IMG/VR virus record: IMGVR_UViG_3300044675_002599
Location: 359 to 64,358 of that record
DNA from: a virus
Lineage: Duplodnaviria; Caudoviricetes
DNA length: 64,000 bases
Reading direction: 5' to 3' (one strand)
The notes under the pieces were generated by a model that was not told the origin of the DNA, did no database searches, and was given only the letters and a program-made list of their open reading frames with translations. The first letter of the stretch is position 1; each line of letters begins with the position of its first letter. A program made the translations under genes and the position numbers. Positions 1,688 through 16,384 of the stretch are shown here, piece after piece.

Positions 1688-1759
1688 CTCCTACTGCTGG
1701 GATCGAACCAGCGACCGTCCGGTTAACAGCCGGATGCTCTACCGCTGAGCTAAGTAGGA
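1688..1759 (-). tRNA. tRNA-Asn (GTT)
   Basis: TCCTACT/AGTAGGA acceptor stem, TAGCTCAGCGGTAGAGC D-arm, TCCGG-CTGTTAA-CCGGA anticodon arm, GGTTCGATCCC T-loop. CCA not encoded directly after the discriminator. Confidence 0.95.
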
Positions 1760-2641: not shown

Positions 2642-2880
2642 TCGACAGGAGCCTTTTCCATTGCAAGCTCAGACAGTGCAGTCTGCTGGAAGTCAATGAG
2701 GAACCTAGATGGAACCTTATGGCCATCGTTACGTAATACATATATCATTGTGGCCGCATCAGCAAGATTATTGCAGACATGCTTATTGCCACCAAGGGTA
2801 ATCTCATACTTACCACCAACCAACATCTTCACTTCAATGTCGCTATCTTTACCAGTCTTGATCAAGTACATATCTTCCAT
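2638..2880 (-). CDS. Hypothetical protein, first gene of the leftward operon
   Basis: 80-aa ORF coupled to dut and preceded by an extended -10 box. Confidence 0.6.
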   Translation of the reverse strand: MEDMYLIKTGKDSDIEVKMLVGGKYEITLGGNKHVCNNLADAATMIYVLRNDGHKVPSRFLIDFQQTALSELAMEKAPVE

Positions 2881-2899
2881 CCTTTATTGGGTGTAATAC

Positions 2900-2908
2900 A
2901 TTATAGCA
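2900..2908 (-). promoter_or_regulatory. Extended -10 promoter (TGCTATAAT)
   Basis: Perfect TGn-TATAAT 20 nt upstream of ATG 2880. Confidence 0.65.
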
Positions 2909-3142
2909 CAGAACATTAAAGAGGGGAGGCTCATTTTGATGGGGTGGTAGTGTTTCTCCGGCGGGAGAAGATATATAGAGCAGAGATGATCTGTAGCTTT
3001 CTGAGTCCCATATAGGTTGACTGGGATAGGGTAGGGGGTTGCCATGCCACCCGGTGTACCCGCCCCCCACCCCCAGCACAACTAAGTTGAATTTGGTTTC
3101 TGGGTTATTATAGGTGTAGGCTCGAACCGGTGGTTCGGGTAT

Positions 3143-3195
3143 GCGGTACGGGGACATGATGCAGGGTAATACTTTGCAATATGTCCCCGTATCGC
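3143..3195 (+). repeat. Long inverted repeat / hairpin
   Basis: GCGGTACGGGGACAT (3143-3157) pairs with ATGTCCCCGTATCGC (3181-3195). Inner stem TGCAGGGTA/TACTTTGCA. Confidence 0.8.
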
Positions 3196-3202
3196 TTTAC
3201 TA

Positions 3203-3230
3203 CAAAAACAAAAACAAAAACAAAACAAAA
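3203..3230 (+). repeat. (CAAAAA)3(CAAAA)2 tract
   Basis: Read directly. Ends 15 nt upstream of ATG 3246. Confidence 0.9.
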
Positions 3231-3245
3231 GGGTGGTATTAGACA

Positions 3246-3671
3246 ATGTCTACAATGTTTATTGATGCAGTCAAGCGCGAAGGTTTCGCGGGTAGTGTAG
3301 CGGGTTCGTTCGATGGTATCGCGGGTGTATTGGATACCTGCGGTATAGAATCGCGGGTTATTACGTCCGCGTTCAATACCCTACTAGATGTAGCGGTAGT
3401 GTTCGATATGTCTGAAACGGACGCGAACGGCGAACGTTTGGCGAAGGTTGCGGAGGCGTTCGTCGCCTTCGTTTCCCCGGTGGTACAAGATGCTACGAAT
3501 CGTCGTACCCGTGCTGAGTTTGAAGCACACTTTGAAGTTATCGCCGCGCTGAAGACTGTCAAGTCTACGGTGGTGGTGTTGACGGATGAGCAAAAAGCCG
3601 CTCGAAAGCGTTTCAACGCTACAGCGACTCGTGTAAAGAGCGAGAAGGCCTTCTCACCCTACACCGGGTGA
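3246..3671 (+). CDS. Hypothetical protein, first rightward (early) gene
   Basis: 141-aa ORF between an A/C-rich leader and a strong terminator. Confidence 0.7.
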   Translation: MSTMFIDAVKREGFAGSVAGSFDGIAGVLDTCGIESRVITSAFNTLLDVAVVFDMSETDANGERLAKVAEAFVAFVSPVVQDATNRRTRAEFEAHFEVIAALKTVKSTVVVLTDEQKAARKRFNATATRVKSEKAFSPYTG

Positions 3672-3679
3672 GTTGGTCG

Positions 3680-3711
3680 CTACCCAGTACACAATACTGG
3701 GTAGTTTTTTT
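3680..3711 (+). terminator. Intrinsic terminator
   Basis: CTACCCAGTA-CACAA-TACTGGGTAG followed by T7, running straight into TATAAT (3711-3716). Confidence 0.85.
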
Positions 3712-3779
3712 ATAATCACTTACTTTCTCCCTAGTGCGTTCAGTACTAGGGAGTATTTGTTTGTATGGAGGTTAGGACA

Positions 3780-4379
3780 ATGGGATTGAACACACGTTCA
3801 ATAGGTAATGCGTTACGCTTACAGCATGAGCTGGACGAGCATCGCGACGACATTATTGCGCACATACAGAGAGTAATGCTCTCTAGTGCAGTCTTGTACT
3901 CACCGGCTGCGAAAGCAATCATGAGCGATAGCCAAGAGATGTTTGATGCATCCTTTGAAGGTATCAGTGCTACAGAGTGTGAGCCTATCTATTACTGGAT
4001 GGTTGCGCTTGGCGCTATGATTATGGAGCGTCCAGACCACGCTCTCTCCCTAGTGCATGTTGATGAGATTTCAGGCAACATCATGCGTACATTCCAGTAC
4101 CTTGAGACCAATGTAGCCAAGCGTGATGCTAATGACTACAAATACTCCCTAGAGCACAGGGACGGTCACTGGTGTTTGATGGCTGCCGCGACAGCTGAAG
4201 TACTAGGCCATACATTCCCTACCACGGTAGAGATTGGCTTCTTGCACTTTAGTCGCCAGCACGTGACTAATCTCGAAATCGAGATGTACGAACGTGTTGC
4301 TCGTGTGTTCATCACACAACACTGGGATGCACGTAAGTCTGAAGAGGTCCGCAATGGCCTCGACTACTCCAACGACTAA
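3780..4379 (+). CDS. Hypothetical early protein
   Basis: Long ORF. GGAGG upstream of ATG 3780. Confidence 0.7.
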   Translation: MGLNTRSIGNALRLQHELDEHRDDIIAHIQRVMLSSAVLYSPAAKAIMSDSQEMFDASFEGISATECEPIYYWMVALGAMIMERPDHALSLVHVDEISGNIMRTFQYLETNVAKRDANDYKYSLEHRDGHWCLMAAATAEVLGHTFPTTVEIGFLHFSRQHVTNLEIEMYERVARVFITQHWDARKSEEVRNGLDYSND

Positions 4380-4436
4380 TAATGGTGAGGGTGGTGGCAA
4401 CATCACCCTCCCGTGGTTCGATTCCACGGTTAGTTA
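4374..4436 (+). ncRNA. tRNA-like element lacking an anticodon loop and D-stem
   Basis: GACTAA/TTAGTT closing stem, TAATGGT linker, 10-bp GCAA-capped hairpin, CCGTGG-TTCGATT-CCACGG T-arm. Confidence 0.6.
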
Positions 4437-4496
4437 TCTCCCTAGTGGGGAACAACAGGTGAGCGACCTTCATACGCATACACAAGGATAACAACA

Positions 4497-4697
4497 ATGT
4501 TCAAATTTCTTAAGCTCCGCAACCTCACTGCATTCGAGTGCACACTCATCAAAGCGTGGTTCTGTGCATGTATCTTCATCATTGGCGCATGCTTTACAAT
4601 GCTCGGACAGAATATGCGTATCATGGAACTTGAATCACACATCGCGTCAATGCAAGACGAAGACGCTAACGCGGACGCTATCGCGCAAGTCAACTAA
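4497..4697 (+). CDS. Small membrane protein
   Basis: 66 aa with hydrophobic segment AWFCACIFIIGACFTMLG. AAGGA RBS. Confidence 0.6.
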   Translation: MFKFLKLRNLTAFECTLIKAWFCACIFIIGACFTMLGQNMRIMELESHIASMQDEDANADAIAQVN

Positions 4698-4708
4698 TCA
4701 ATACACAG

Positions 4709-4742
4709 GCCATCACCTCCGGGTGGTGGCTTTTCTTTTTTT
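4709..4742 (+). terminator. Intrinsic terminator
   Basis: GCCATCACC-TCCG-GGTGGTGGC followed by TTTTCTTTTTTT. Confidence 0.85.
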
Positions 4743-4766
4743 GCGTGTCTGGAGGCACATTAACAA

Positions 4767-4988
4767 ATGCGTAATTCATTCGAACTTAAAATGGATGTTA
4801 ATACTGCACGTGATGCAGAACACCAACTACACAAAATGTACGGCGATCTACGCCACCCTATGGTTATTGCTGCGACCTCTCGCAAGCGTGACCTCATCCG
4901 CCAAATGGATGACGCAATCATGCGTGAAATGATGGACGGTAAACGCAAAGACGTAGAAGCTTTCTACGGTATGAGGAAAAAGAAATGA
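4767..4988 (+). CDS. Hypothetical early protein
   Basis: GGAGG RBS. ATGA-coupled to the next gene. Confidence 0.65.
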   Translation: MRNSFELKMDVNTARDAEHQLHKMYGDLRHPMVIAATSRKRDLIRQMDDAIMREMMDGKRKDVEAFYGMRKKK

Positions 4989-5218
4989 CAAGAGAACAAG
5001 CAATCATGGCTGTGCGCGTATACGCAGCATGGCAATACGACACTGACATCAACGTGTGGTCGGTAACATCACGCGAAAAATATATTGAGCGTTACCTTGA
5101 TAGCGTCAAAGACCTGCCAGATACATTCCTTATCAGCATTGGGCAAACCGCACTGGACGCTATGCAAAACCCCGTCGGTGATCTCGTCAAACAACTTAGG
5201 ACACTGCAAGCACTATGA
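4985..5218 (+). CDS. Hypothetical early protein
   Basis: Translationally coupled on both sides. Confidence 0.65.
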   Translation: MTREQAIMAVRVYAAWQYDTDINVWSVTSREKYIERYLDSVKDLPDTFLISIGQTALDAMQNPVGDLVKQLRTLQAL

Positions 5219-5601
5219 TAATCCCCTCCGATTTCTGCACCCTTGATGTAGAACCAAAAGTCTACACAATAAGCCAACAACCTCATCTCAAAACAACCCC
5301 GATAGCATACGCCCTCTTCACTGAGGGCGGACACTACGATGAAGAGAACGACGAATACGAAGAAGGCACATATGTAGTACATATGGACCATCACAACATT
5401 GCACACGTGATCATGTGCAAAGACTTCTTTGTGGCACAAAGCGTACTCAAAGAATATATGGATGCAACACAGAACACCGCATACATAAGTGGATGCCCGT
5501 TGGAATCTGTCAATGATGGACACAACATCCGCTATTACGAATCATCAACCGTAATCGTAGATATGACACTCGCCGAATACCTAGTAAGGATAAAGAAATG
5601 A
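5215..5601 (+). CDS. Hypothetical acidic early protein
   Basis: Coupled ORF with acidic patch YDEENDEYEEG. Confidence 0.65.
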   Translation: MIIPSDFCTLDVEPKVYTISQQPHLKTTPIAYALFTEGGHYDEENDEYEEGTYVVHMDHHNIAHVIMCKDFFVAQSVLKEYMDATQNTAYISGCPLESVNDGHNIRYYESSTVIVDMTLAEYLVRIKK

Positions 5602-5933
5602 AAGTAACAATCGACACCAAGAACTATACGGAAGCACAGCTCCGTACACTCGTACGCCAAGGCATCATCGACAAGAGTGTTCTCCGCAAGGAAACACTCG
5701 ACCCCATTGCGATGGAAGCAATGCAGTTCATGCACGTCCACTACACCAACGATCAGATCTCTGCAATGGCCGGTGTCAAATCCGCAACATGGGTCTGGAA
5801 CATGGCACAAGGCAACATTGTCAAGATGTACAAACTCGTCATTGACAACATGAACATCACACCAAGTGAACTGCTGATTATCCAGTCAGCTGCACACGTG
5901 ATGACACGCATATCACAACGTAGCATCAAGTAA
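5598..5933 (+). CDS. Hypothetical protein, possible HTH
   Basis: YTNDQISAMAGVKSATWVWN resembles a helix-turn-helix. Confidence 0.55.
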   Translation: MKVTIDTKNYTEAQLRTLVRQGIIDKSVLRKETLDPIAMEAMQFMHVHYTNDQISAMAGVKSATWVWNMAQGNIVKMYKLVIDNMNITPSELLIIQSAAHVMTRISQRSIK

Positions 5934-5935
5934 GG

Positions 5936-6050
5936 GGGAGGGTCTAAAAATTAGTACCCTCCCAAAAATAGTAACCGGGAGGGTCTAAATTTAGTAACCC
6001 TCATTACATTGAATGATAATTAATTTAACTATATATTGTCCATGGACAAT
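5936..6050. repeat. Tandem palindromic repeats, AT-rich tract and 16-bp palindrome (candidate origin)
   Basis: GGGAGGGTCTAAAAATTAGTACCCTCCC (5936-5963), GGGAGGGTCTAAATTTAGTAACCCTC (5977-6002), AT-rich 6003-6035, ATTGTCCATGGACAAT (6035-6050). Confidence 0.75.
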
Positions 6051-6066
6051 GGGAGCTAGGTAATAC

Positions 6067-6381
6067 ATGGAGCTGAGAGTAGGACAGAACGTACGCAACG
6101 TACGACGCCCAGATGTCATAGGAATAATCACATCATTGGAAGCGCCCAACAATCAATGGGCAAGACCACAAGACCGTAGAGTCATGGTCAGATACCCACG
6201 AGTAACCATCATGTCCAATGGTAAATGGAAAGGTGGCATCCTTGATGAACTGCCAATAGACCTTCTCCCTACAGGAGAACCTATTCATCCTGCCTTTGAC
6301 TCATATAAACGTAGCGGAGATCAAGGCACCGGTGAAGTTAGAATGCTCGCACACAAAAGAACAAGAAGGAAAAATAAATGA
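6067..6381 (+). CDS. Hypothetical protein, possible SH3-like barrel
   Basis: LRVGQNVRN...IGIITSL...VMVRY pattern. Confidence 0.6.
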   Translation: MELRVGQNVRNVRRPDVIGIITSLEAPNNQWARPQDRRVMVRYPRVTIMSNGKWKGGILDELPIDLLPTGEPIHPAFDSYKRSGDQGTGEVRMLAHKRTRRKNK

Positions 6382-6491
6382 TAATCATCGGATGTTTCTG
6401 CATCGTAATACTATCCATCCTATTTCTATTAGGATGGTTTTTTAATTCAATCGAAATCGCACAAGGCAAAATAGATGACAACAAAGAATAA
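6378..6491 (+). CDS. 37-aa single-pass membrane protein
   Basis: Manual translation MIIIGCFCIVILSILFLLGWFFNSIEIAQGKIDDNKE. ATGA overlap, fills the gap. Below the ORF-track cutoff. Confidence 0.55.
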   Translation: MIIIGCFCIVILSILFLLGWFFNSIEIAQGKIDDNKE

Positions 6492-6879
6492 ACAAATCAT
6501 CAGTGCCCATGAGTTGGCACGTAACGTAATCAAGGCCTACGAGATAGCTGACGCCCTCATCACGGGCGTTGAGTTCCATAACTCAGAGAATGGTAGGTCA
6601 AAGCATCGATCGACTATCAATGGCGTACTTGAAGTCAGATTACATATGCATTATGAACGCATGACTTCTGCTGTGTACACAATCTACATTCAGATACATG
6701 ACAACAAGTGGACTTTAACCACAAGCGGTTATCTCAATGATGTCAATGTCGAGTATTCAAGTACTGATACTGACATGACATACAACTACCTTGATCTTAA
6801 AGAATGGGTTAATGACTTTGTTGCCACCGTCTATCAACTCAAAGTTGCAGAAGTACACGGCATCGTAGTCATCCCATAG
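6475..6879 (+). CDS. Hypothetical early protein
   Basis: 134-aa ORF in the co-oriented array. Confidence 0.65.
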   Translation: MTTKNKQIISAHELARNVIKAYEIADALITGVEFHNSENGRSKHRSTINGVLEVRLHMHYERMTSAVYTIYIQIHDNKWTLTTSGYLNDVNVEYSSTDTDMTYNYLDLKEWVNDFVATVYQLKVAEVHGIVVIP

Positions 6880-6885
6880 TTAGAC

Positions 6886-6914
6886 GTGAGGGATGCGTCT
6901 CACCAACAACGCAT
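6886..6914 (+). repeat. 29-nt intergenic repeat, copy 1 (predicted H-type pseudoknot)
   Basis: GTGAGGGATGCGTCTCACCAACAACGCAT. Confidence 0.9.
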
Positions 6915-6928
6915 GAAAGAGAAACACA

Positions 6929-7147
6929 ATGACTGACGAACAAAAGAAACATCGTTACTATAACTGGGTTCGTGAACAAAGATGTCTTAGCCTTATGCTT
7001 GGCACAACGTGGGAAGAGCCAGTTAAAGAAGATGGTACCGATGAAGATGACATCAATATCTTATGGGATTTTTATGTCAATACCATCAAACGTCAATTGG
7101 ATGAAATTGTAGCTAAACTTACAGAGTTAGAAAGAAAAACACAATGA
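6929..7147 (+). CDS. Hypothetical early protein
   Basis: 72 aa. A-rich leader after repeat copy 1. Confidence 0.65.
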   Translation: MTDEQKKHRYYNWVREQRCLSLMLGTTWEEPVKEDGTDEDDINILWDFYVNTIKRQLDEIVAKLTELERKTQ

Positions 7148-7476
7148 CAGATCTTACACATTACAGGACTATCATCCTGCGATTCGCTTACTTACATATC
7201 CACCCCGGTGGTGGTCTTGCCGCGATGATTATGCTTAAACCCGGCTTTGAAGACAAACTCGATCACATAGCACAAGCTAATCTGTGTGAGTTGCTCAAGT
7301 TTGCAAATGGTCATGTACCACATGACACACGCAATGCACAAGGATTCAATGACTGGCTTGGCGAGGAGCCAAACATGTTTGAGAAAGAGTCATTCAATAA
7401 GTGGATGTCGGCAATCACACCGATGCCACGACCTACACCAGCAGGATGGGAGGAAGTAGATACTACAAATGGCTAG
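7144..7476 (+). CDS. Hypothetical early protein
   Basis: Coupled 110-aa ORF. Confidence 0.65.
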   Translation: MTDLTHYRTIILRFAYLHIHPGGGLAAMIMLKPGFEDKLDHIAQANLCELLKFANGHVPHDTRNAQGFNDWLGEEPNMFEKESFNKWMSAITPMPRPTPAGWEEVDTTNG

Positions 7477-7717
7477 GTATACCTACCACAATCAACAGCA
7501 TAACTTTCAAGGCCAAGCAATTGGCCTCCCTGATGTTTATACAAATGCATCGGCTGCACAAAAAATTGCTGGACTTCATGTTTACTGTGATCCAACAATT
7601 ATGCATATACGGATCTCGCGATGCTTAGAGCATACATATGAGTTTAAGCCATACGCGATCGTTTATATGAACATAGTGACTGATAAACCAATTACCAGTA
7701 GAAGGAAAGTGTTTTAA
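7469..7717 (+). CDS. Hypothetical early protein
   Basis: GGAGG RBS. 82 aa. Confidence 0.6.
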   Translation: MARYTYHNQQHNFQGQAIGLPDVYTNASAAQKIAGLHVYCDPTIMHIRISRCLEHTYEFKPYAIVYMNIVTDKPITSRRKVF

Positions 7718-7972
7718 ATGAGATTTAAATACGAAGTACTTTACGGAAGCTTAGTTATTGAAGCGCTCCTTAAAGAGAAATTGATTACAAAGGATCATTA
7801 CGATCACATGTGGGAAATCTTTGTTGATCGAGGTAATGAATTGACATATACATTGATTGACTTAGCTGATGTTTTAATTAATCTTGAGCAAGTTGATTGC
7901 GAAATGATTGTTAATTACATGACTGCTAACCATAACTTAATCGAGTTTTACACAACTAAGCTCGCTATCTAA
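7718..7972 (+). CDS. Hypothetical early protein
   Basis: 84 aa. Abuts the upstream stop. Confidence 0.6.
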   Translation: MRFKYEVLYGSLVIEALLKEKLITKDHYDHMWEIFVDRGNELTYTLIDLADVLINLEQVDCEMIVNYMTANHNLIEFYTTKLAI

Positions 7973-7979
7973 TGTTTGT

Positions 7980-8008
7980 GTGAGGGGTGCGTCTCACTAA
8001 CAACGCAT
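7980..8008 (+). repeat. 29-nt intergenic repeat, copy 2 (predicted H-type pseudoknot)
   Basis: GTGAGGGGTGCGTCTCACTAACAACGCAT. Confidence 0.9.
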
Positions 8009-8024
8009 AGAAAAGAAACACATT

Positions 8025-8516
8025 ATGTCTATCGAATTGTACACAAAGTATTTCCGCGAAACTCTTCTCGCTGTTCCTGCAAAAGTAGCAGACGGTACAT
8101 TGCTTTCGTATGCTGGATACCACACCACATCACATACAGATACCGTTGAACTCAACGGGCATTACATATCAATGGAGTACAAGCTGCGTATGGACGTAGC
8201 TAATGGTGAAGAGAAGACTCTTCATCCTATTCCTCTTGTTCAAATTGAACTAACTATGACATTGCGTCCTGACAAGGATAGCCGTGAAACATCGTCATTT
8301 ATGAGCAAGGTCATCAAGGTTCAGCTTAACAGCGAGACTCTTGAAGAGCAGATTGATGAGGCGATTCAGACACTGGAGCGCATCATTATAGATGTAAAGT
8401 TGCCAACTATAGCTTTTGACTTCTGGAAGTATGTTGCAACTGCAATGCCAGACTTTGAGAAGCAGGTGTCTAAAGCGGTTGTGACTAACCACACTCGTCT
8501 ATCCTATAAGGACTAG
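8025..8516 (+). CDS. Hypothetical early protein
   Basis: 163 aa, flanked by repeat copies 2 and 3. Confidence 0.7.
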   Translation: MSIELYTKYFRETLLAVPAKVADGTLLSYAGYHTTSHTDTVELNGHYISMEYKLRMDVANGEEKTLHPIPLVQIELTMTLRPDKDSRETSSFMSKVIKVQLNSETLEEQIDEAIQTLERIIIDVKLPTIAFDFWKYVATAMPDFEKQVSKAVVTNHTRLSYKD

Positions 8517-8522
8517 TTAGAT

Positions 8523-8551
8523 GTGAGGGGTGCGTCTCACTAACAACGCAC
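8523..8551 (+). repeat. 29-nt intergenic repeat, copy 3 (predicted H-type pseudoknot)
   Basis: GTGAGGGGTGCGTCTCACTAACAACGCAC. Confidence 0.9.
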
Positions 8552-8576
8552 AACTACACAATAAATAGGCAACACA

Positions 8577-8840
8577 ATGAAATACACAGAACCAGCGTTT
8601 CGTAAACTCGTAGATGAGCTGCTCACAAAGACTATTGGATTTGATAGCACTGATCTACCTGACTTTAGTCTTTGGGAATACTTTGACCTTGACTATGATT
8701 ACACACCACAAGAAATATCTAAAGCAGTACAAGAAGCAAGCATTGATCTACTTGTTGAGGCTGATGGGCCAAGCGATTTATTGATTGAGATAGTACAAGA
8801 CTTGATGAAACAAGAAGCAAACACACTTAGAGGAATTTAA
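8577..8840 (+). CDS. Small acidic early protein
   Basis: 87 aa, 19 D/E versus 7 K/R by manual count. Confidence 0.65.
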   Translation: MKYTEPAFRKLVDELLTKTIGFDSTDLPDFSLWEYFDLDYDYTPQEISKAVQEASIDLLVEADGPSDLLIEIVQDLMKQEANTLRGI

Positions 8841-8842
8841 TT

Positions 8843-9088
8843 ATGGAACGAGTTATCTGTTTGGTAAGCGTAGAGATGTTTAATGCACCCGGCATGTTAC
8901 GCTGGGCACGTCACTTTTACCGCATGAGTAACTGCTCCAAGAAAGACAAGAAGTATTTCTTGGGTGTCATGGAAGCATGGGTAACAGACAAGGCAACTGC
9001 TAAGTACTGCCTCGAATGCCCTGATGATGTCATTCAATGGGATGACACAGCACAGACAGCAACAATAACAATAAAGGTAACAAAATGA
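8843..9088 (+). CDS. Hypothetical early protein
   Basis: 81 aa. GAGGA RBS. Confidence 0.6.
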   Translation: MERVICLVSVEMFNAPGMLRWARHFYRMSNCSKKDKKYFLGVMEAWVTDKATAKYCLECPDDVIQWDDTAQTATITIKVTK

Positions 9089-9402
9089 GTTTTGAATTTA
9101 GACCTATCAAGTACACATTCTGGAATACGTTCGGGGATAACACCCCGAACGATTTCGTTTGTATGTATATCGAACCGCATTATGGTGAGCCATGCCTTAT
9201 CAAAATTAGGCGCAGACTTGCTACAGAAATCGGATGTAAGAGACTACGTCAAGGTGTAGAGTGGCACGTCAACGATACTGACTGCTCTATGTGGAGTCAA
9301 CGTCATGCAGTCATAGGTTACGCTGAAGTGCTTGCACCTATAACTGTTGAGTCTAAGAAACAAGCTCTAGCAGTGTGTGAATTTATGGAGTTAAAACAAT
9401 AA
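9085..9402 (+). CDS. Hypothetical early protein
   Basis: Coupled 105-aa ORF. Confidence 0.6.
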   Translation: MSFEFRPIKYTFWNTFGDNTPNDFVCMYIEPHYGEPCLIKIRRRLATEIGCKRLRQGVEWHVNDTDCSMWSQRHAVIGYAEVLAPITVESKKQALAVCEFMELKQ

Positions 9403-9650
9403 TGAAAGCTGTCGAAGGTGCTGGATTAATCATTGCAAGCCCAGTGTTAATGGGATGTGGGTGTTGTTTAGTACCTGTTATTGCATTTATCGTAATGACA
9501 ATATTCTCTACTGTTGCAATCGGTACAAGTGGATTAATAGGTGTACTAATTCACAACAAACAAACTGTACTAATAACTCTTTCAATAGGGTTAATCATTA
9601 CTGGTGGAGTGATTTTATTTAAATATTTTGGAGAAAAACCTAATGAGTGA
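9402..9650 (+). CDS. Small membrane protein (2-3 hydrophobic segments)
   Basis: Almost entirely hydrophobic 82-aa ORF with GCGCC. Confidence 0.6.
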   Translation: MKAVEGAGLIIASPVLMGCGCCLVPVIAFIVMTIFSTVAIGTSGLIGVLIHNKQTVLITLSIGLIITGGVILFKYFGEKPNE

Positions 9651-10041
9651 GAACATACTTCTGCAAGCATGGGAAGAAATAATGAGCGATGCACAAGAAG
9701 CTGAAGAGTGCATTGTTTCCATGTATAGCATTGAGCCGTATTATGGTGGCCCAGAGGAAGGAGGTTGGTGGGGCAACCTGTACATACTCAGAGAATATGT
9801 ACGATGTAGTAATCGTGAAGCAGCAGAGAGTCTACGAACAAAACTGCAAGAGAGATGTTCACAGTTAAATTATGAAGCAAAAATAGCAGACGGAGAACAT
9901 TGCTTGCGTCAGATAGAAAGGGCTGACGCACGGGGTGAAGACATTGATGACTATGGTTATGATGGACCAAGTTCATACAACGTAATCATCGAGAAGTTTC
10001 CCGGCGAGAATCAAGTAACAGAAAGATCACATTACGAATAA
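9643..10041 (+). CDS. Hypothetical early protein with YGGPEEGGWW motif
   Basis: Motif recalled from other phage early proteins. GGAG upstream of ATG 9643. Confidence 0.65.
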   Translation: MSENILLQAWEEIMSDAQEAEECIVSMYSIEPYYGGPEEGGWWGNLYILREYVRCSNREAAESLRTKLQERCSQLNYEAKIADGEHCLRQIERADARGEDIDDYGYDGPSSYNVIIEKFPGENQVTERSHYE

Positions 10042-10550
10042 TGCCACTCAAGAAACTGACGCCTGAACAAACAGAATCAATACGTCATCAAGCAAACAAT
10101 GGTGTAAGTGTAGTTGCACTTGCTACTAAATACAAAGTGTCTGAACAACACATATACAGAATTAAAAGTAATCAACGACGAGACAGAAAGACAAAACAAA
10201 TGAGTACATACAACGGCTGGACTAATTACGCGACATGGTTGTTTTATCTGCATCACCAAGAAAATGTAGAGCACTGGTATTACGATGAGCCAGCAAGCAC
10301 ACGCAAAGATCTTGATGAAACACATCTTCAAAATTATTTTGAGGAAATGTACGGCGAACTGATGCATGATGTTGCAAATACTTACATCACTGACGTTTTC
10401 AATAATGAGCTACGTGATGTGAATTGGAAGGAGGTAATGAAGACATTACGAGCAGAAGATGAGACATATGATGCCAATTGGACAGAAGAAGGCGCAATAA
10501 CAAACTACTTAGACCACATAGCAGAAAACAAAGATAAAGAAAGAAACTAA
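10041..10550 (+). CDS. HTH domain fused to an acidic YNGWTNYATW-type domain
   Basis: N-terminal KLTPEQTESIR...VVALATKYKVSEQHIYRIK HTH. The second domain begins MSTYNGWTNYATW at ATG 10200. Confidence 0.65.
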   Translation: MPLKKLTPEQTESIRHQANNGVSVVALATKYKVSEQHIYRIKSNQRRDRKTKQMSTYNGWTNYATWLFYLHHQENVEHWYYDEPASTRKDLDETHLQNYFEEMYGELMHDVANTYITDVFNNELRDVNWKEVMKTLRAEDETYDANWTEEGAITNYLDHIAENKDKERN

Positions 10551-11443
10551 TGACAGCACAACAATATCTCGCTAAGTTCGGGCTGGATGCAAATCCAGCC
10601 CTTTTCACCAATGTACACAATGGCAAACACATGAAGCCCAAGTACAACTCATACTGTATCTACGATGGCGTTAGCCAACTAGACAGACGGTCTCGCATCA
10701 TATGTGTCATGTCTAACTGCCAGACCAATAATGAGGACTGGAACATCAAGACTGGTGACATGATTCAGTCATACATCATCATGCGTGATGTACATCCACA
10801 AGTTGCAATCGACCAGCTACTCGATGGTTGTATCTGTGGTAACTGCACACACCGCAAGCGACGCAAGCGCCACACACGTACAGCCAAGGTCAAGGATGTA
10901 CGTACTTGCTACGTCAACATCGGCAAGGGTACAGCAGCTGTCTGGGAGTCATTTCAAAAGGGCAACATACCTATTGTGTCTAGCACTGTTGCCGCTACTA
11001 TTCAGGTAGTTGCTGGCAAGAAACTACGCATGGGTACATACGGTGACCCAGTTGCTGTACCATTCCCAATCTGGGGTGACATGCTACGCTATGAGCTTGG
11101 TCATACTGGCTATACACATCAATGGCGTATGCCAATAGCCAAGCCGTTCCGTGGTGTACTTCAAGCATCATGTGACTCATACATTGATCGATGGGAAGCC
11201 AAACAGGCTGGCTGGGGTACGTTTCTAGTTCGTCCACACGATGGATATATTGACAAGCGCCACACTGCTTATGCCCGTGGCGCCAAACAATGCCCAAGCG
11301 ATCCATTCATTAACGAGATGCGAGTAATGCGGAATATGCTGAAAATGCATACTACATGCGATACTTGTCCTGCATCTCTACGCTGTGATGGCGATAGCGA
11401 TATCGTCATCCGTGCCCACGGTTCAGCTGCGCTGTGGGTTTAA
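10550..11443 (+). CDS. Cys-rich putative Fe-S protein (gp88/DUF7227-like, radical-SAM-related by recollection)
   Basis: CICGNCTHR...CYVN, RMGTYGDP, TGYTHQW, CP...TCDTC...C...AHG. Confidence 0.6.
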   Translation: MTAQQYLAKFGLDANPALFTNVHNGKHMKPKYNSYCIYDGVSQLDRRSRIICVMSNCQTNNEDWNIKTGDMIQSYIIMRDVHPQVAIDQLLDGCICGNCTHRKRRKRHTRTAKVKDVRTCYVNIGKGTAAVWESFQKGNIPIVSSTVAATIQVVAGKKLRMGTYGDPVAVPFPIWGDMLRYELGHTGYTHQWRMPIAKPFRGVLQASCDSYIDRWEAKQAGWGTFLVRPHDGYIDKRHTAYARGAKQCPSDPFINEMRVMRNMLKMHTTCDTCPASLRCDGDSDIVIRAHGSAALWV

Positions 11444-11464
11444 TTAAACACAAGGTAAATAAAC

Positions 11465-11878
11465 ATGTTTTATTCAATATGCGAAGAAGACGAATGGTCA
11501 TCTGATCACTGGGATGGACAAGGTCACTATACAAAGGATGGAGAGTGTCACTCGCCAGCTAACGGTGTGTACTTTGCTTACAATGTTGCTCAACGTATCT
11601 TTGCTGACATAAGAGTCAGATATACAGACGAAGGCGTTAAGCAATTCATTCAGGAAGAATGCGACAGATGCAAATGCCGCGTTGATTCCGATGAAATCGA
11701 TGTGTTTTGCAAAGCTATACAAGACGCATACGATGCTGAGACAGTAGAAGAATTCAACGAGTCACTATGGGATTTTGTTCACGACAGTGACTTTAGTGAG
11801 TGGAATGACATATTTAGTGGGCATGATCTTGCTTATGCATGCAAACTTACAGAACCAGAAGGATGGGTAACACATTGA
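11465..11878 (+). CDS. Acidic hypothetical early protein
   Basis: 137 aa, D/E-rich. Confidence 0.65.
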   Translation: MFYSICEEDEWSSDHWDGQGHYTKDGECHSPANGVYFAYNVAQRIFADIRVRYTDEGVKQFIQEECDRCKCRVDSDEIDVFCKAIQDAYDAETVEEFNESLWDFVHDSDFSEWNDIFSGHDLAYACKLTEPEGWVTH

Positions 11879-12168
11879 CAGTAGAAGAAATTGATCAAGA
11901 TCAAGAGAATTTTGAGAACGAGTTGCGATGGCTGCGGGAGAAATACCCGCAGTTTTACATTGAAGTATGGGGGCCATATGACTTTGCATTGCAACTTAAT
12001 AATGGTGGATATCCGACTGGAGACGAACTTGCACAGGCTGCAGCAGAAAACTGGGATAAATGGGTAGGTGTAGTCGAGGTATTACACGACACATTTGATG
12101 CCCACGTTGGCACAAATTGGGATCGACTTACACAAGCAATAAAGGAGATAGAACGAGATGCAAAATGA
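11863..12168 (+). CDS. Acidic hypothetical early protein
   Basis: ORF track gives 11839. Likely start is ATG 11863 or TTG 11875. Confidence 0.6.
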   Translation: MGNTLTVEEIDQDQENFENELRWLREKYPQFYIEVWGPYDFALQLNNGGYPTGDELAQAAAENWDKWVGVVEVLHDTFDAHVGTNWDRLTQAIKEIERDAK

Positions 12169-12487
12169 TTACACACCTGAACACATGAAGTTTACTATTC
12201 AATCCATCAACACGGAGTGGTGGTACGAGATGATGATGGACATGATCCAATACAACGATTGGGTCAAGAATGTACGCACCGTTGAACATACAGATACAAA
12301 CTGGGTAATAGAGATCATTGATGATGAGTGTGAAACACATCTCATATCAGATCTGAATCTGTTGGAACATCTACGCAAGAGCTGGTCAATTGGCGACCGG
12401 ACGTTTGTAGAGCCACAAAATATTGATTACGACATCATTGACTGCATAGTGCAAGAACTATGCTTTGGTGAGTTAGTTTACGGATAA
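12158..12487 (+). CDS. Acidic hypothetical early protein
   Basis: AAGGAG RBS. C-terminal DYDIIDCIVQELCFGELVYG, an ending pattern recalled from other phage proteins. Confidence 0.65.
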   Translation: MQNDYTPEHMKFTIQSINTEWWYEMMMDMIQYNDWVKNVRTVEHTDTNWVIEIIDDECETHLISDLNLLEHLRKSWSIGDRTFVEPQNIDYDIIDCIVQELCFGELVYG

Positions 12488-12498
12488 GGAGTAACACA

Positions 12499-13005
12499 AT
12501 GCCTAATTGGTGCGTTAACACATTTATTGTTTCTGGTGACAACATCGACGATGTAACAAAATGGCAAACAGAAAACACAACTGTAGATAAACATGGTCTT
12601 TACCAAGTAGATTTCAATGGGTCAGTACCCATGCCAGATGAAGAAGATGGCAACAACTGGTACACATGGTCTTTATCTAACTGGGGGACTAAATGGAATG
12701 CATGCTATGGCTGCATACTAGAAAGCATTGGTAACGACAACGAGTTACGATATTCGTTCGACACAGCATGGAGTCCACCACGTGAGTGGTTCATTACTAT
12801 GAGTGCAAAGTATCCCAAGCTTAACTTTGCAATGCACTACTCAGAACCCGGCATGTGCTTTGCTGGCACTATGTCCAGACAAGACGGTTACTTTGACGAA
12901 GTGCAACGAGTAAATGAAGAGTTGACTGATGAAGACAAAGAAGCAATGGGTTACACACCATGCGAGTGTTGCAAGGGTTGGGAAGAAGAATGCATGTGTG
13001 ACTGA
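12499..13005 (+). CDS. YubB/DUF1281-like ferredoxin-fold protein
   Basis: MPNWC, WYTWSLSNWGTKWN, FDTAWSPP and YSEPGMCFAG signature motifs. Confidence 0.85.
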   Translation: MPNWCVNTFIVSGDNIDDVTKWQTENTTVDKHGLYQVDFNGSVPMPDEEDGNNWYTWSLSNWGTKWNACYGCILESIGNDNELRYSFDTAWSPPREWFITMSAKYPKLNFAMHYSEPGMCFAGTMSRQDGYFDEVQRVNEELTDEDKEAMGYTPCECCKGWEEECMCD

Positions 13006-13011
13006 TATACT
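13003..13011 (+). promoter_or_regulatory. Extended -10 promoter (TGATATACT)
   Basis: Precedes the recombination/replication block and is followed directly by AATGTATTACA. Confidence 0.5.
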
Positions 13012-13045
13012 AATGTATTACAAATCAATATCTTGAAAGGAAATT

Positions 13046-13465
13046 ATGTTAGAAGAATTAGTTTCGTTAATGAATGAGATGCAGTCAGATGCCGACCCAC
13101 AACTCAAAGAGGGGTGGAAACAAATAGAACCATTAATATCACCAAGTGGAATCATTACACTCACGTGGCCTAAATGGAAATTAAAAATCACATCATTTAA
13201 AATGCCGAACACACAAGAAGGGAAGACAAATCATTTTGAAAATTTAAAAACAATGGACGAACTATATGTAAGCAAAGTTGAAGCAGATAAACCATCGCTT
13301 CTTTGGAGAACACCACAATCAGAAACAAAATACAACTGGTCGGAATATGAAAAACCGTACGTTGTAGACGTTGTTGATTGGTTCCTCAAAGGTGACTGGA
13401 CTCCGCCATGGAAGTGCGGTCACTGTATGGCTAGGCACAAGACCTCTAGTCCTCCTAAGTTCTAA
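13046..13465 (+). CDS. Hypothetical protein
   Basis: 139 aa. AAAGGA RBS. Confidence 0.65.
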   Translation: MLEELVSLMNEMQSDADPQLKEGWKQIEPLISPSGIITLTWPKWKLKITSFKMPNTQEGKTNHFENLKTMDELYVSKVEADKPSLLWRTPQSETKYNWSEYEKPYVVDVVDWFLKGDWTPPWKCGHCMARHKTSSPPKF

Positions 13466-14019
13466 TGCCAACAAGAAGACGGAGTGCTTATCACCCTGTT
13501 TGCTACTACGTGGACTCTCCTTTAGGGAGGGTCCATATTAGCAATCAGTTCACTGCAAAGATTATCTATCAACTATGGTGTCAATACTCTTGTGATTATA
13601 ATCTCGATGGTGTAGTTACAGTTCATGCATTGATGTCACCTAATGGGTGGTCAACATGGAGTCGTAAACACGTTATTGATTTACTAAATGGTGGATGGAA
13701 AGCAAGGCTTCTATGTAAGTCGATCATAACTAATTCAGAACGTAAGGAGGTATTGTTTAACTCATCAGTAAAAATATCAACTGATGAATATGAATGGTTT
13801 TCAATACATAAATGGAACGACATGACCAATGTCGTAAATCATCAACTTACATTGACGTTGATGTATCCACAGGTATTGCAACACATATTAAGATCACCAA
13901 CTCCATTATCCGCTCGCATGGCATTAGAGATAGATAAGCTCTCTGTCTTCCCAGATGGAACATCATCAACTAAATATGTAAAACAAGTTTGGGAATACAT
14001 ACATGGAAGAAGATCCTGA
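13465..14019 (+). CDS. Hypothetical protein
   Basis: 184 aa. TAATG-coupled. Confidence 0.65.
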   Translation: MPTRRRSAYHPVCYYVDSPLGRVHISNQFTAKIIYQLWCQYSCDYNLDGVVTVHALMSPNGWSTWSRKHVIDLLNGGWKARLLCKSIITNSERKEVLFNSSVKISTDEYEWFSIHKWNDMTNVVNHQLTLTLMYPQVLQHILRSPTPLSARMALEIDKLSVFPDGTSSTKYVKQVWEYIHGRRS

Positions 14020-14113
14020 TTTCATAAGTGCCATACAAGGTGGCATGGGTTGTTTATTTATCATCTTATTAGTAGCAAGCTATTTCTACTATGCGTATAT
14101 CATTAGAATATGA
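14003..14113 (+). CDS. 36-aa single-pass membrane protein
   Basis: Manual translation MEEDPDFISAIQGGMGCLFIILLVASYFYYAYIIRI. ATGA overlap with the next gene. Confidence 0.5.
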   Translation: MEEDPDFISAIQGGMGCLFIILLVASYFYYAYIIRI

Positions 14114-14478
14114 GAAGGAAAAACGACGAAGCAGTATTTCAAAGTCAAGTCTGCATGATGTTACGAGCATGTGGATACACAATTATTGAGGTAGGTAAAT
14201 CAAGAGGCAAAACAAGATGTCGTTCATGTGGCACATTTCAATACGCTACTGGATGGCAAGGTAATACCGTTGGCGCACCTGATTTATACGTACATTGTAA
14301 AGACTGGCCAATACCAATCGGTGTTGGCCTTGAATTAAAAACAGAGAAAGGGTCTGTAAGAGAAGCACAACAATTAATAGCAAATGAAAACATGACAGTC
14401 ATCTGTAGGAATGTAGATGACGTAATAAACGCAATGAGAAAAGTCGAACTAAAGTTTGAAAGAGAATGTAAATTATGA
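14110..14478 (+). CDS. VRR-NUC-like PD-(D/E)xK nuclease with CxxC insert
   Basis: EAVFQ...GAPDL...ELKTEKG...Q motif order. Confidence 0.8.
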   Translation: MRRKNDEAVFQSQVCMMLRACGYTIIEVGKSRGKTRCRSCGTFQYATGWQGNTVGAPDLYVHCKDWPIPIGVGLELKTEKGSVREAQQLIANENMTVICRNVDDVINAMRKVELKFERECKL

Positions 14479-16281: not shown

Positions 16282-16334
16282 GATTGATTGCTCCGTAACT
16301 ATATTCAAACGGAGTCAACAACAACCAAACATAG

Positions 16335-16365: not shown

Positions 16366-16384
16366 GTGGCATAGAAAGAATTAT

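What the first reader, a model, noticed from the sequence alone, without database searches (positions are those of the whole stretch)
6886..8551. Three intergenic copies of a compact H-type pseudoknot with a covarying base pair
Seen: GTGAG-GG-RTGCGT-CTCAC-YAACA-ACGCAY at 6886, 7980 and 8523, each 6-7 nt after a stop codon and 14-25 nt before the next ATG. Stem 1 is GTGAG/CTCAC and stem 2 is RTGCGT/ACGCAY. The outer stem-2 pair is A-U, G-U and G-C in copies 1-3, so the variable positions keep pairing. The only other change is in the loop. Known: this geometry with an AACAA-type loop resembles luteoviral frameshift pseudoknots, and T-even gene 32 mRNA uses a 5' pseudoknot as a translational operator. 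Inference: a repeated translational operator or enhancer, or an exonuclease block. The repeats could also serve as recombination points that shuffle early-gene cassettes (8025-8516 is exactly bracketed by two copies).
Basis: partly seen in the sequence, partly recalled or inferred. Interest (0 to 1): 0.8.

Follow-up and report, generated by a model that had tools for sequence, protein, structure and literature searches.

The report
Repeated RNA pseudoknot between phage genes
Three copies of a nearly invariant 29-base sequence between early genes of an uncultured 64-kb phage most likely fold into a small knotted RNA placed just after a stop codon, whose role (probably marking or shielding gene boundaries on a long message) is untested.

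Summary
The 29-mer occurs exactly three times in the 64,358-b phage genome (6886, 7980, 8523, all on the + strand), against 0 expected by chance. It recurs in 36 related IMG/VR contigs and 64 metagenome loci.

In 151 distinct contexts, both outer pairs keep pairing:
- Pair 1-18: G-C 141, C-G 8, U-A 2, no mismatch.
- Pair 8-29: G-C 99, A-U 28, G-U 23, one C.A, never A.C.

G-U is tolerated but A.C is absent. That points to the sense strand, meaning the mRNA, rather than to duplex DNA.

The fold is therefore S1 5 bp, L1 GG, S2 5 bp, a 1-nt junction and a 6-nt A-rich L3. The eight inner pairs never vary, so structure alone does not explain the conservation.

The motif starts 5-8 nt after a stop codon in 84 of 87 contexts. 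It occupies the only three uncoupled gene junctions in its operon. Similarity breakpoints between relatives concentrate there.

It is not a frameshift signal, a sigma-70 promoter, a PeSL or an Rfam family. No phage RNA polymerase was detected.

My best reading is an mRNA boundary or barrier element, but the function is unproven. Earlier notes of this scan (e1-5912355 and others) reported the same 29-mer and similar knots on other DNA.

The parts
6886..6914 (+). Motif copy A. S1 5' arm 6886-6890, L1 6891-6892, S2 5' arm 6893-6897, junction nt 6898, S1 3' arm 6899-6903, L3 6904-6909, S2 3' arm 6910-6914. The outer S2 pair is A-U.
7980..8008 (+). Motif copy B, with the same architecture. The outer S2 pair is G-U here. 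It is G-U or G-C in most relatives and A-U in 2 of 35. This copy always lies upstream of the 163-aa gene family.
8523..8551 (+). Motif copy C, with the same architecture. The outer S2 pair is G-C (G-C in 34 of 35 related contigs). This copy always lies directly after the 163-aa gene.
6877..6879 (+). TAG stop of the conserved 134-aa gene (6475-6879), 6 nt before copy A.
7970..7972 (+). TAA stop of the 84-aa gene (7718-7972), 7 nt before copy B.
8514..8516 (+). TAG stop of the 163-aa gene, 6 nt before copy C.
8025..8516 (+). The 163-aa gene bracketed by copies B and C. It forms a family down to 29% identity among relatives, has a confident AF2 model (pLDDT 86.2) with no clear known fold, and has no Pfam or PHROG hit.
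6915..6931 (+). A-rich spacer, an SD-like AAGAG and the ATG of the gene after copy A. The equivalent leaders run 8009-8027 after copy B and 8552-8579 after copy C.
6915..7151 (+). A 72-aa gene (6929-7147) flanked by 22-nt direct repeats of the ribosome-binding region (6915-6936 and 7130-7151). The gene is absent from the closest relative, where copy A directly precedes the 110-aa gene.
6009..6037 (+). Sigma-70-like promoter (TTGAAT-17-TATATT) upstream of the operon that contains the three copies. It is conserved in relatives and is the likely source of the transcript carrying the motif.

Best explanation
The 29-mer is a cis-acting RNA element in the phage's polycistronic early mRNA. It folds into a compact H-type pseudoknot: S1 5 bp, L1 GG, S2 5 bp, one junction nucleotide and a 6-nt A-rich L3.

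It starts 5-8 nt after the upstream stop codon. At that distance a terminating ribosome reaches its stop with the knot at the mRNA entrance channel, without unwinding it.

I infer that it acts as a boundary mark between blocks of translationally coupled genes. It would work as a mechanical or nuclease barrier, and as an insulator of the next ribosome-binding site, so that the pieces of the long message are stable and translated independently. As a side effect, the invariant sequence serves as a recombination junction where accessory early genes are exchanged.

Shown: the repeat, its placement, its conservation, the covariation of both outer pairs and the strand asymmetry.
Inferred: that both helices form at once, the barrier or insulator mechanism, and its direction (5' or 3' protection).
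For: 1. The interleaved complementarity is present in all 3 copies and far exceeds chance.

2. Both outer pairs covary in 151 unique contexts. Pair 1-18 is always complementary, with three pair types: G-C 141, C-G 8, U-A 2. Pair 8-29 is G-C 99, A-U 28, G-U 23, C.A 1 and A.C 0. Positions 1, 8, 18 and 29 were left free in the metagenome pattern.

3. On alignment A2 all 10 pairs are 100% paired. The covariation score is 0.087 against a shuffled mean of 0.045, reached by 0 of 500 shuffles.

4. Among 13 contigs whose copy A has A8, position 29 of copy A never changes. Position 29 of copy B (G8) changes at least 4 times on the same tree, and at least 11 times over 35 contigs.

5. G-U without A.C fits pairing on the sense strand. 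On the template strand those 23 contexts would be C.A mismatches.

6. The other variable positions are exactly the predicted junction (13) and loop positions (19, 20, 22).

7. The motif starts 5-8 nt after a stop codon in 84 of 87 contexts. In the 87 contexts it never overlaps a coding region, and it always has the orientation of the genes. One metagenome copy (L248) is an exception: an upstream frame ends in a TGA inside the motif.

8. [quoted passage not shown]

9. In the run of genes 6067-11443, 11 junctions are overlaps or gaps of at most 2 nt. The only 3 long junctions (49, 52 and 60 nt) carry the motif.

10. A conserved sigma-70-like promoter lies upstream. No phage RNA polymerase or sigma factor was detected.

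11. The motif stays identical while the adjacent 163-aa protein diverges to 29% identity. It also occurs next to unrelated genes in other contigs (L225, L230, L248).

12. Context pairs with one flank at least 80% identical and the other below 62% number 57, against 36 with both flanks similar. At control points 300 nt away the counts are 21 vs 82 and 15 vs 89.

13. Each helix alone is stable as a hairpin: S1 -5.6 to -6.0 and S2 -3.3 to -4.5 kcal/mol.

14. Folded viral RNAs of this general kind block exonucleases, including bacterial RNase J1, and also block ribosomes (PMC5760640 passages; PMC10520033 passages; PMC10321173 abstract and section 14).
Against: - Only the two terminal pairs covary. 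The eight inner pairs, L1 (GG) and A21, A23 and A24 are essentially invariant (one search shows a single G at position 21). Structure alone does not explain the conservation, and a sequence-specific partner (a protein, RNA polymerase or the ribosome) is implied.
- Much of the invariance in the metagenome set is imposed by the search pattern.
- Contexts are related by descent and by recombination, so the counts are not independent events. The Fisher p of 1e-16 is not corrected for phylogeny.
- Position 29 is almost fixed as C in copy C (34 of 35). It is therefore not simply free whenever position 8 is G.
- One C.A exception exists (L248). In that copy an upstream reading frame ends in a TGA inside the motif.
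- ViennaRNA cannot score pseudoknots. The nested MFE of the 29-mer is only the S1 hairpin, with z about -1.
- No transcript data exist.
- The distance to the next start codon varies: 13-26 nt in the clade and 33-56 nt in L225, L230 and L248. This argues against a strict steric role at the ribosome-binding site.
- Known frameshifter pseudoknots did not stall Xrn1 (PMC10321173 abstract). A compact knot is therefore not automatically a nuclease block.
- The host, and so its RNase set, is unknown.
Confidence: 0.5

Rival explanations
1. It is a translational operator. The knot is the nucleation or binding site for a trans-acting repressor or activator, either a phage early protein such as the bracketed 163-aa protein or a host factor such as S1. 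That factor would control the ribosome-binding site just downstream, as gp32 does at the T4 gene 32 leader.
For: - The arrangement is knot, then an A-rich unstructured spacer, then SD and ATG, with the SD starting 1-12 nt after the motif in the clade.
- Near-total sequence invariance implies a sequence-specific partner.
- The T4 precedent is a pseudoknot upstream of an unstructured leader that overlaps the RBS (PMC3014915 passages).
- The 163-aa gene is flanked by copies in 35 of 35 contigs.
Against: - No RNA-binding protein was identified. The 163-aa model has no clear fold match (best VIA Z 6.1; ssRNA-phage coat proteins only Z 3.5-4.1; Foldseek E at least 0.015).
- The distance to the start codon is variable, and reaches 33-56 nt in L225, L230 and L248.
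- Spacing is tight to the upstream stop, not to the downstream start.
- The motif occurs in contigs whose flanking genes have no homologue in this genome.
Confidence: 0.17
2. It is a promoter acting on DNA, recognised by an unidentified phage-encoded or virion-carried RNA polymerase. This would resemble the three early hairpin promoters of N4 or the conserved promoters of T7-type phages.
For: - A highly conserved motif of about 29 nt, a few copies, in early intergenic gaps, co-oriented with genes and 13-26 nt before start codons, is the classic look of a phage promoter.
- The giant 4439-aa ORF (20182-33501, - strand) has unknown function.
- A purine follows the motif in the copies aligned.
- L225 lies after a non-coding, repeat-rich region.
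Against: - Complementarity of 1-18 (151 of 151) and 8-29 (150 of 151), with G-U allowed and A.C absent, is not expected for a duplex-DNA site. It is also the wrong way round for a template-strand hairpin.
- The hairpin loops are 8 and 12 nt, not 3 nt.
- No PF00940 or sigma-70 region 2 match in six frames (the PF00940 control rang nowhere, so that result is weak).
- No PHROG or Pfam RNA polymerase hit and no DxDGD motif in the large proteins.
- The middle of the giant protein resembles, weakly, 'polyvalent protein' clusters rather than a polymerase (score 0.79, a lead only).
- No copy precedes the 43 kb of late genes.
- No sigma-70 hexamers overlap the motif, while a conserved host-type promoter lies upstream.
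- In the 87 contexts the motif never overlaps an upstream ORF.
Confidence: 0.15
3. It is not a knot. Either only one hairpin forms, or S1 and S2 are alternative states of a switch, for example one toggled by the terminating ribosome.
For: - The nested MFE is the S1 hairpin alone.
- Covariation exists for each helix separately, but nothing shows that they form together.
- Copy C with its flanks has an alternative nested fold of -15 kcal/mol, z -2.7.
Against: - S1 and S2 share no nucleotides.
- The loop lengths (2, 1 and 6 nt) match those of known compact pseudoknots, as I recall them.
- Invariant L1 guanines and L3 adenines suggest tertiary contacts of the kind described for polerovirus knots (PMC5009743 passage).
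- The alternative pairing in copy C is not kept in relatives whose downstream segment varies.
Confidence: 0.1
4. It is a DNA-level site: a recombination or cassette-exchange site, a binding site for a DNA-binding protein, or an RNA decoy that mimics a host CRISPR repeat.
For: - Breakpoints of similarity cluster at the motif, and downstream genes are swapped among relatives.
- The arms are palindromic.
Against: - No recombinase was recognised in the early region.
- Any conserved sequence attracts homologous recombination, so the breakpoints do not require a dedicated site.
- The G-U versus A.C asymmetry is unexplained by a symmetric protein-DNA site.
- The central and 3' parts are conserved but asymmetric.
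- There are 0 matches in 185,579 species genomes for the strict pattern. A looser pattern gave 43 single hits in scattered taxa with no arrays, so there is no CRISPR-repeat counterpart.
Confidence: 0.06

Closest known systems
Coremin motif (xrRNA-C) and its Watson-Crick variant, found in beny-, cucumo- and other RNA viruses
   Same: Both are tiny elements of about 20-30 nt. Each has a small hairpin whose loop pairs with a downstream spacer, a very short G-containing L1 and a 6-nt A-rich connecting loop. Both are often intergenic. Coremin acts as a physical block to 5'-3' exonuclease and to ribosomes (PMC10520033 passages; PMC10321173 abstract and section 14).
   Different: The coremin hairpin loop must fit YGAD or YGNNAD; here the loop is GGRUGCGN. 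Coremin needs a second hairpin directly downstream, and none is present here. Stems here are 5+5 bp versus about 3+3. The coremin sequence quoted in the paper (GUCCGAAGACGUUAAACUAC) is not alignable to this motif beyond an A-rich loop. Bacteria have no Xrn1, and nothing has been tested in bacteria.
Polerovirus/luteovirus -1 frameshift pseudoknots (BWYV type)
   Same: Both have a compact H-type architecture: 5-bp S1, 2-nt L1, an unpaired junction nucleotide and an A-rich loop that could lie in the S1 minor groove. The architecture is recalled; the L3-S1 triplex is described in PMC5009743. Both lie 5-9 nt from the A-site codon.
   Different: Here a stop codon, not a slippery heptamer, precedes the motif. 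There is no overlapping -1 ORF. S2 is 5 bp rather than 3. This is a dsDNA phage mRNA with 2-4 copies per genome.
T4/T2 gene 32 mRNA operator
   Same: It is a phage mRNA H-type pseudoknot upstream of an unstructured leader and ribosome-binding site (PMC3014915 passages).
   Different: That element is a single copy, lies 67 nt upstream of the start, and is bound by the gene's own product (an SSB). Here there are several copies in front of unrelated small genes, no binding protein is known, and the spacing is anchored to the upstream stop codon.
PeSL promoter-early stem-loop cassettes of T4-type phages
   Same: Both are conserved intergenic repeats, followed by an SD and a start codon, that sit at gene-content breakpoints among related phages (PMC4122927 passages).
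   Different: PeSLs are a terminator-like stem-loop plus sigma-70 -35 and -10 boxes. This motif has no such hexamers and has pseudoknot topology.
RNase III processing sites of the T7 early mRNA, and bacterial REP elements (both recalled; REP sequences are mentioned only in passing in PMC7509114)
   Same: Both are repeated structured elements in the intercistronic gaps of a polycistronic message. They define or protect mRNA ends.
   Different: Those are long irregular hairpins (T7) or imperfect palindromes present in hundreds of host copies (REP). This is a 29-nt knot with no match in bacterial genomes.

Membership tests
H-type RNA pseudoknot (structural class) | Two helices with interleaved arms (5'S1, 5'S2, 3'S1, 3'S2). 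| tested here: met
   The sequence shows GTGAG/CTCAC and RTGCG/CGCAY interleaved in all copies.
H-type RNA pseudoknot (structural class) | Base pairs of both helices supported by compensatory change. | tested here: inconclusive
   The outer pair of each helix covaries: 1-18 is G-C, C-G or U-A with 0 mismatches in 151 contexts, and 8-29 is G-C, A-U or G-U with 1 mismatch. The 8 inner pairs never vary. The proposed pair 13-24 is not kept.
H-type RNA pseudoknot (structural class) | Both helices form at the same time in the RNA. | not testable with these tools
   ViennaRNA does not score pseudoknots. Chemical probing or NMR is needed.
-1 programmed frameshift stimulator (polerovirus type) | A slippery heptamer 5-9 nt upstream and an overlapping -1 frame ORF. 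| tested here: not met
   A stop codon lies 5-8 nt upstream. The upstream sequences vary. The offsets from stop to next ATG are 52, 55 and 63 nt, which puts them in different frames. Downstream genes have their own SD and ATG.
Coremin / xrRNA-C | The hairpin-1 loop fits YGAD or YGNNAD. | tested here: not met
   The loop is GGRUGCGN, against the consensus given in PMC10520033.
Coremin / xrRNA-C | A second hairpin directly after the conserved spacer. | tested here: not met
   The motif is followed by an A-rich leader or SD. No hairpin appears there in the folds of copies 1 and 2, and the downstream sequences are diverse.
Coremin / xrRNA-C | It stalls a 5'-3' exoribonuclease. | not testable with these tools
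   This needs an in vitro RNase J, Xrn1 or RNase E assay.
T4 gene 32-type translational operator | A pseudoknot 5' of an unstructured leader overlapping the RBS, bound by a cognate protein. | tested here: inconclusive
   The arrangement is present. No binding protein was identified, and the fold search for the 163-aa neighbour gave no clear match.
PeSL (T4-type promoter-early stem-loop) | Sigma-70 -35 and -10 hexamers within the repeat. | tested here: not met
   None of the 32 promoter-like sites in 2800-20500 overlaps a motif copy. The PeSL definition comes from PMC4122927.
N4-type hairpin promoter | A template-strand hairpin with a 5-7 bp stem and a 3-nt loop, plus a virion RNA polymerase gene (features recalled). 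| tested here: not met
   The loops are 8 and 12 nt. The G-U (23) versus A.C (0) asymmetry favours the sense strand. The giant ORF has no PHROG, Pfam or PDB-sequence hit.
T7-type single-subunit RNAP promoter | A phage RNAP gene, and promoter copies before middle and late genes. | tested here: not met
   No PF00940 match (weak control). There are no copies outside 6886-8551.
Any Rfam 15 family (including preQ1 and other small pseudoknot riboswitches) | A covariance-model match. | tested here: not met
   At gathering threshold only 3 tRNAs match. At E up to 10, the scans around copies 1 and 3 return only unrelated weak hits.
RNA anti-CRISPR / solitary CRISPR repeat | Resemblance to repeats of a bacterial CRISPR array. 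| tested here: not met
   The strict pattern gives 0 hits. The looser pattern gives 43 single hits with no arrays.

The most novel reading that the evidence does not exclude
The 29-mer is a bacterial-virus counterpart of the small exonuclease- and ribosome-blocking knots of eukaryotic RNA viruses. It would be a protein-independent, triplex-stabilised pseudoknot parked at the mRNA entrance of the terminating ribosome. It would cut long phage early messages into separately stable, separately translated modules, by stopping RNase J, RNase E scanning, 3' exonucleases or post-termination ribosomes. Because it is invariant, it would also be the junction at which accessory-gene cassettes move between unrelated phages.
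Probability: 0.3. Interest if true: 0.8.

Novelty: new variant of a known kind. Interest (0 to 1): 0.6.

Why it matters
Small mRNA pseudoknots are known in phages almost only as the T4 gene 32 operator. Nuclease- or ribosome-blocking knots are known only from eukaryotic RNA viruses.

A sequence-invariant knot at a fixed distance after stop codons would be something different. It recurs in unrelated uncultured phages and is absent from Rfam. It would be a new class of intercistronic punctuation in bacterial gene expression.

It would also make three questions directly testable:
- how phages give differential stability and translation to genes on one long transcript;
- what happens to a ribosome that terminates against a folded RNA;
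- how ORFan gene cassettes are exchanged.

It may also be useful as a compact insulator for synthetic operons.

Tried and rejected
- N4-like phage hypothesis, prompted by the 4439-aa ORF. Dropped: no PHROG, Pfam or PDB-sequence hit, no DxDGD motif, and the replication module is DnaB/O-like/Gam-like.
- Megablast of 5500-10500 against phage records gave no match. tblastn with the major capsid protein found only Streptomyces and Bacillus phage capsid genes at about 25% identity.
- RNA sequencing runs: no RNA holder was listed.
- Readthrough, frameshift or bypassing. Rejected: in-frame continuation ends in stops inside or just after the motif, and the frames differ between copies.
- preQ1-like or other riboswitch: no Rfam hit, and there is no expression platform.
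- Sixth S2 pair (13-24): rejected.
- Extending S1 with a G6.U13 pair: rejected because position 13 varies.
- The alternative nested fold of copy C with its downstream ACUACACA segment is not conserved as pairing.
- Variants with a different S2 were sought using S1 and the loops fixed. Only the known clade plus 6 unrelated simple hairpins were found.
- The U-A and C-G outer-pair variants were sought in viral contigs. The result was 0 contigs and the 3 already known.
- Relatives of the gene next to the L230/L248 copies (L261, L262 read; L263 not read) show no motif upstream of that gene.
- CRISPR-repeat mimic: no arrays.
- The 163-aa neighbour as a binding protein: no family hit, no Atlas hit and no clear fold match. 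The resemblance to ssRNA-phage coat proteins is at noise level.
- The records behind L225, L230 and L248 could not be read further.
- Earlier notes describe a 'coremin-like core'. For this 29-mer the defining coremin features are not met.
Full report
WHAT IS THERE

The window is almost all of a 64,358-b IMG/VR virus record that CheckV rates as complete. It is a tailed phage:
- It has a portal, major capsid protein, large terminase, endolysin, DnaB-type helicase, O-like initiator and Gam-like protein.
- It has no close cultured relative.
- It has a 4439-aa ORF with no detectable family.

The reported 29-mer is at 6886-6914, 7980-8008 and 8523-8551, all on the + strand.
- The 18-nt core with up to 2 mismatches matches 3 times, against 0 in 100 shuffles.
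- The whole genome has only these 3 copies at up to 3 mismatches.
- It is the only long high-identity repeat in the window. The exceptions are a 22-nt ribosome-binding-site repeat (6915/7130) and a tandem hairpin pair (5929/5970).

RELATIVES

- The core occurs in 48 loci of 36 IMG/VR contigs, many 60-66 kb long, with 1-3 exact copies each.
- Scanning those loci with up to 6 mismatches added 22 variant copies. They differ only at position 13 or at positions 1 and 18 together.
- Searches with the neighbouring 134-aa protein, and with an alignment of the 163-aa family, returned the same clade.
- A metagenome scan left positions 1, 8, 13, 18-22 and 29 free. It gave 64 loci and 89 contexts, 71 of them new.
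- Two of these (L230, L248) and a third (L225) sit next to genes that have no homologue in this genome. The motif is therefore not confined to one phage lineage.
- No bacterial genome of 185,579 species holds it.

CONSERVATION AND COVARIATION

In 87 contexts from viral contigs, 21 of 29 positions are invariant. In 151 unique contexts overall:
- Pair 1-18: G-C 141, C-G 8, U-A 2, no non-complementary combination.
- Pair 8-29: G-C 99, A-U 28, G-U 23, C.A 1, A.C 0.
- Position 13: U 115, C 22, A 13, G 1, opposite an unchanging A24.
- The remaining variation is at positions 19, 20 and 22, plus one G at 21.

On alignment A2 all ten pairs are 100% paired. The covariation score is 0.087 against 0.045 for shuffles (0 of 500 reach it). 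Slid registers give 18-53% pairing.

On a tree of the 163-aa gene (35 contigs):
- Position 29 of copy B changes at least 11 times.
- In the 13 contigs whose copy A has A at position 8, position 29 of copy A never changes, while copy B changes at least 4 times in the same contigs.
- Copy C is G-C in 34 of 35. Selection on this pair is therefore copy-specific (A-U in copy A, G-U or G-C in B, G-C in C), which I cannot explain.

Cautions:
- Contexts are related by descent and recombination.
- The metagenome pattern fixed 20 positions.
- The eight inner pairs never vary, so they say nothing for or against pairing.

The motif is unchanged next to a protein family that has diverged to 29% identity. 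This means sequence-specific constraint, not mere structure.

RNA OR DNA?

G-U is tolerated (23 contexts) while A.C is absent. This is the signature of pairing on the sense strand. On the template strand the same 23 contexts would be C.A mismatches, and the state that would be G.T there never occurs. A symmetric protein-DNA site would treat the two asymmetric states alike.

The context also points to mRNA:
- The motif always has the orientation of the genes, and in the 87 contexts it never overlaps an ORF.
- It lies downstream of a conserved sigma-70-like promoter at 6009-6037.
- No sigma-70 hexamers overlap it.
- No RNA polymerase or sigma factor was found. The PF00940 control rang nowhere, so that negative is weak.
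- No copy precedes the late genes.

I therefore read it as an element of the mRNA. A structured-DNA promoter for an unrecognised polymerase remains the main rival.

FOLD

The corrected architecture is:
- S1 5 bp (1-5 with 14-18)
- L1 GG
- S2 5 bp (8-12 with 25-29)
- junction nucleotide 13
- L3 19-24 (YRAHAA)

Each helix alone is stable as a hairpin: S1 -5.6 to -6.0 and S2 -3.3 to -4.5 kcal/mol. The nested MFE is the S1 hairpin, with z about -1. The program cannot score knots, so simultaneous formation is inferred from geometry and from covariation in both helices.

The loop lengths and the invariant L1 guanines and L3 adenines resemble the compact polerovirus knots, whose third loop forms a minor-groove triplex with stem 1 (PMC5009743 passage; the detailed architecture is recalled).

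PLACEMENT

The motif begins 5-8 nt after a stop codon in 84 of 87 contexts. The stop codons are TAA 56, TAG 30 and TGA 1.

[quoted passage not shown] A terminating ribosome would therefore abut the knot without melting it. This step is inference.

In the gene run 6067-11443, 11 junctions are overlaps or gaps of at most 2 nt. The only three long junctions (49, 52 and 60 nt) carry the motif. It thus separates blocks of translationally coupled genes.

The distance to the next start is looser: 13-26 nt in the clade and 33-56 nt in L225, L230 and L248. In L225 the motif follows a non-coding, repeat-rich region. In L248 an upstream frame ends in the TGA inside the motif.

MOSAICISM

- Synteny is [134-aa gene]-A-[variable genes]-[84-aa gene]-B-[163-aa gene]-C-[variable genes].
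- At least 4 gene families follow copy A and at least 7 follow copy C.
- Pairs of contexts with one flank at least 80% identical and the other below 62% number 57, against 36 with both flanks similar. At control points 300 nt away the counts are 21 vs 82 and 15 vs 89.
- The window itself has an extra 72-aa gene after copy A relative to its closest relative. That gene is bounded by the 22-nt ribosome-binding-site repeat.

It needs no dedicated recombinase, because any invariant sequence will do.

WHAT IT IS NOT

- Not a frameshift or readthrough signal: no slippery site, inconsistent frames and independent starts.
- Not a PeSL: no promoter hexamers (PMC4122927 passages).
- Not an Rfam family.
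- Not a CRISPR-repeat mimic.
- Not a coremin member: the loop consensus and the second hairpin are both missing (PMC10520033).

MECHANISM

I commit to an intercistronic boundary element: a mechanically robust knot that acts as a barrier or insulator on the early polycistronic mRNA.

Support from precedent:
- Viral knots of similar size stall exonucleases and ribosomes.
- A flaviviral xrRNA blocks bacterial RNase J1 (PMC5760640 passages).
- Structured 3' ends impede 3'-5' RNases (PMC7509114 passage).

Against over-reading:
- Ordinary frameshifter knots did not stall Xrn1.
- The host is unknown.
- The near-total sequence invariance suggests an unidentified partner.

A gene 32-like operator (PMC3014915 passages) is the closest rival on the RNA side. 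The 163-aa protein bracketed by two copies gave a confident model (pLDDT 86.2, pTM 0.81). It has no clear fold match: best Z is 6.1, and ssRNA-phage coat proteins reach only Z 3.5-4.1.

EARLIER NOTES OF THIS SCAN

After I had formed this reading, look-ups showed that the same 29-mer was reported on another genome (e1-5912355). Similar stop-codon-anchored knots were reported in many phages, with coremin named as the closest known element. These are unchecked AI notes and not independent evidence. They agree with my reading and gave me the coremin lead. I tested that lead by reading the papers, and for this motif it fails as family membership.

PRINT SEARCHES

Searches found no paper describing such an element in phages. 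Subscription journals and supplements were not covered.

Noticed in passing
window 20182-33501 (-): A single 4439-aa ORF has no PHROG, Pfam or PDB-sequence hit. Its middle 2001 aa resemble, weakly (score 0.79, a lead only), clusters named 'large polyvalent protein'.
   Followed up: partly
window 5929-6037: Two tandem 33-nt hairpin-forming repeats (GGGAGGGT...ACCCTC) lie directly upstream of a sigma-70-like promoter (TTGAAT-17-TATATT). The block is conserved in several relatives and may be an operator or terminator-promoter unit for the early operon.
   Followed up: partly
window 3160-4460: A segment with 50% G+C, against 42% elsewhere. It begins after an (ACAAAA)n-like run at about 3205-3232. 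It contains a tRNA T-arm-like hairpin at 4411-4429 that ARAGORN and Rfam do not call as a tRNA. It may be a foreign insert or a tRNA fragment.
   Followed up: no
window 6915-7151: A 72-aa gene sits between two 22-nt copies of the ribosome-binding region. The closest relative lacks it. This looks like a one-gene cassette insertion by recombination between RBS repeats.
   Followed up: partly
window 8025-8516: The 163-aa protein gives a confident AlphaFold model: an N-terminal helix, four long antiparallel strands and two C-terminal helices. It has no convincing match in the PDB. One uncharacterised viral protein in BFVD matches at E 5e-16.
   Followed up: yes
window 6378-6491: An unlisted 37-codon ORF encodes a hydrophobic peptide and overlaps both neighbouring genes. 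The terminator-like hairpin at 6415-6437 lies inside it.
   Followed up: no
window 6886-8551 and related loci: The outer S2 pair differs by copy position across genomes: A-U in the first copy, G-U or G-C in the second, and G-C in the third (34 of 35). The predicted stability is graded along the operon, and I have no explanation for this.
   Followed up: partly
L225:1-150 (metagenome locus): A variant copy (C-G outer pair, G at position 13) follows a non-coding stretch with several TGTAGCA-type repeats, rather than a gene end. This suggests the motif can also sit in a 5' leader.
   Followed up: no
window 1688-1759, 63502-63659 (-): Three phage tRNA genes: Asn-GTT, Arg-TCT and Leu-TAA.
   Followed up: no
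window 8552-8576 and related loci: Copies of the third type carry an extra conserved leader, A(A)CTACACAAT...AAAGG, which stays the same in front of different downstream genes. Its partial complementarity to the S1 5' arm is not conserved.
   Followed up: partly
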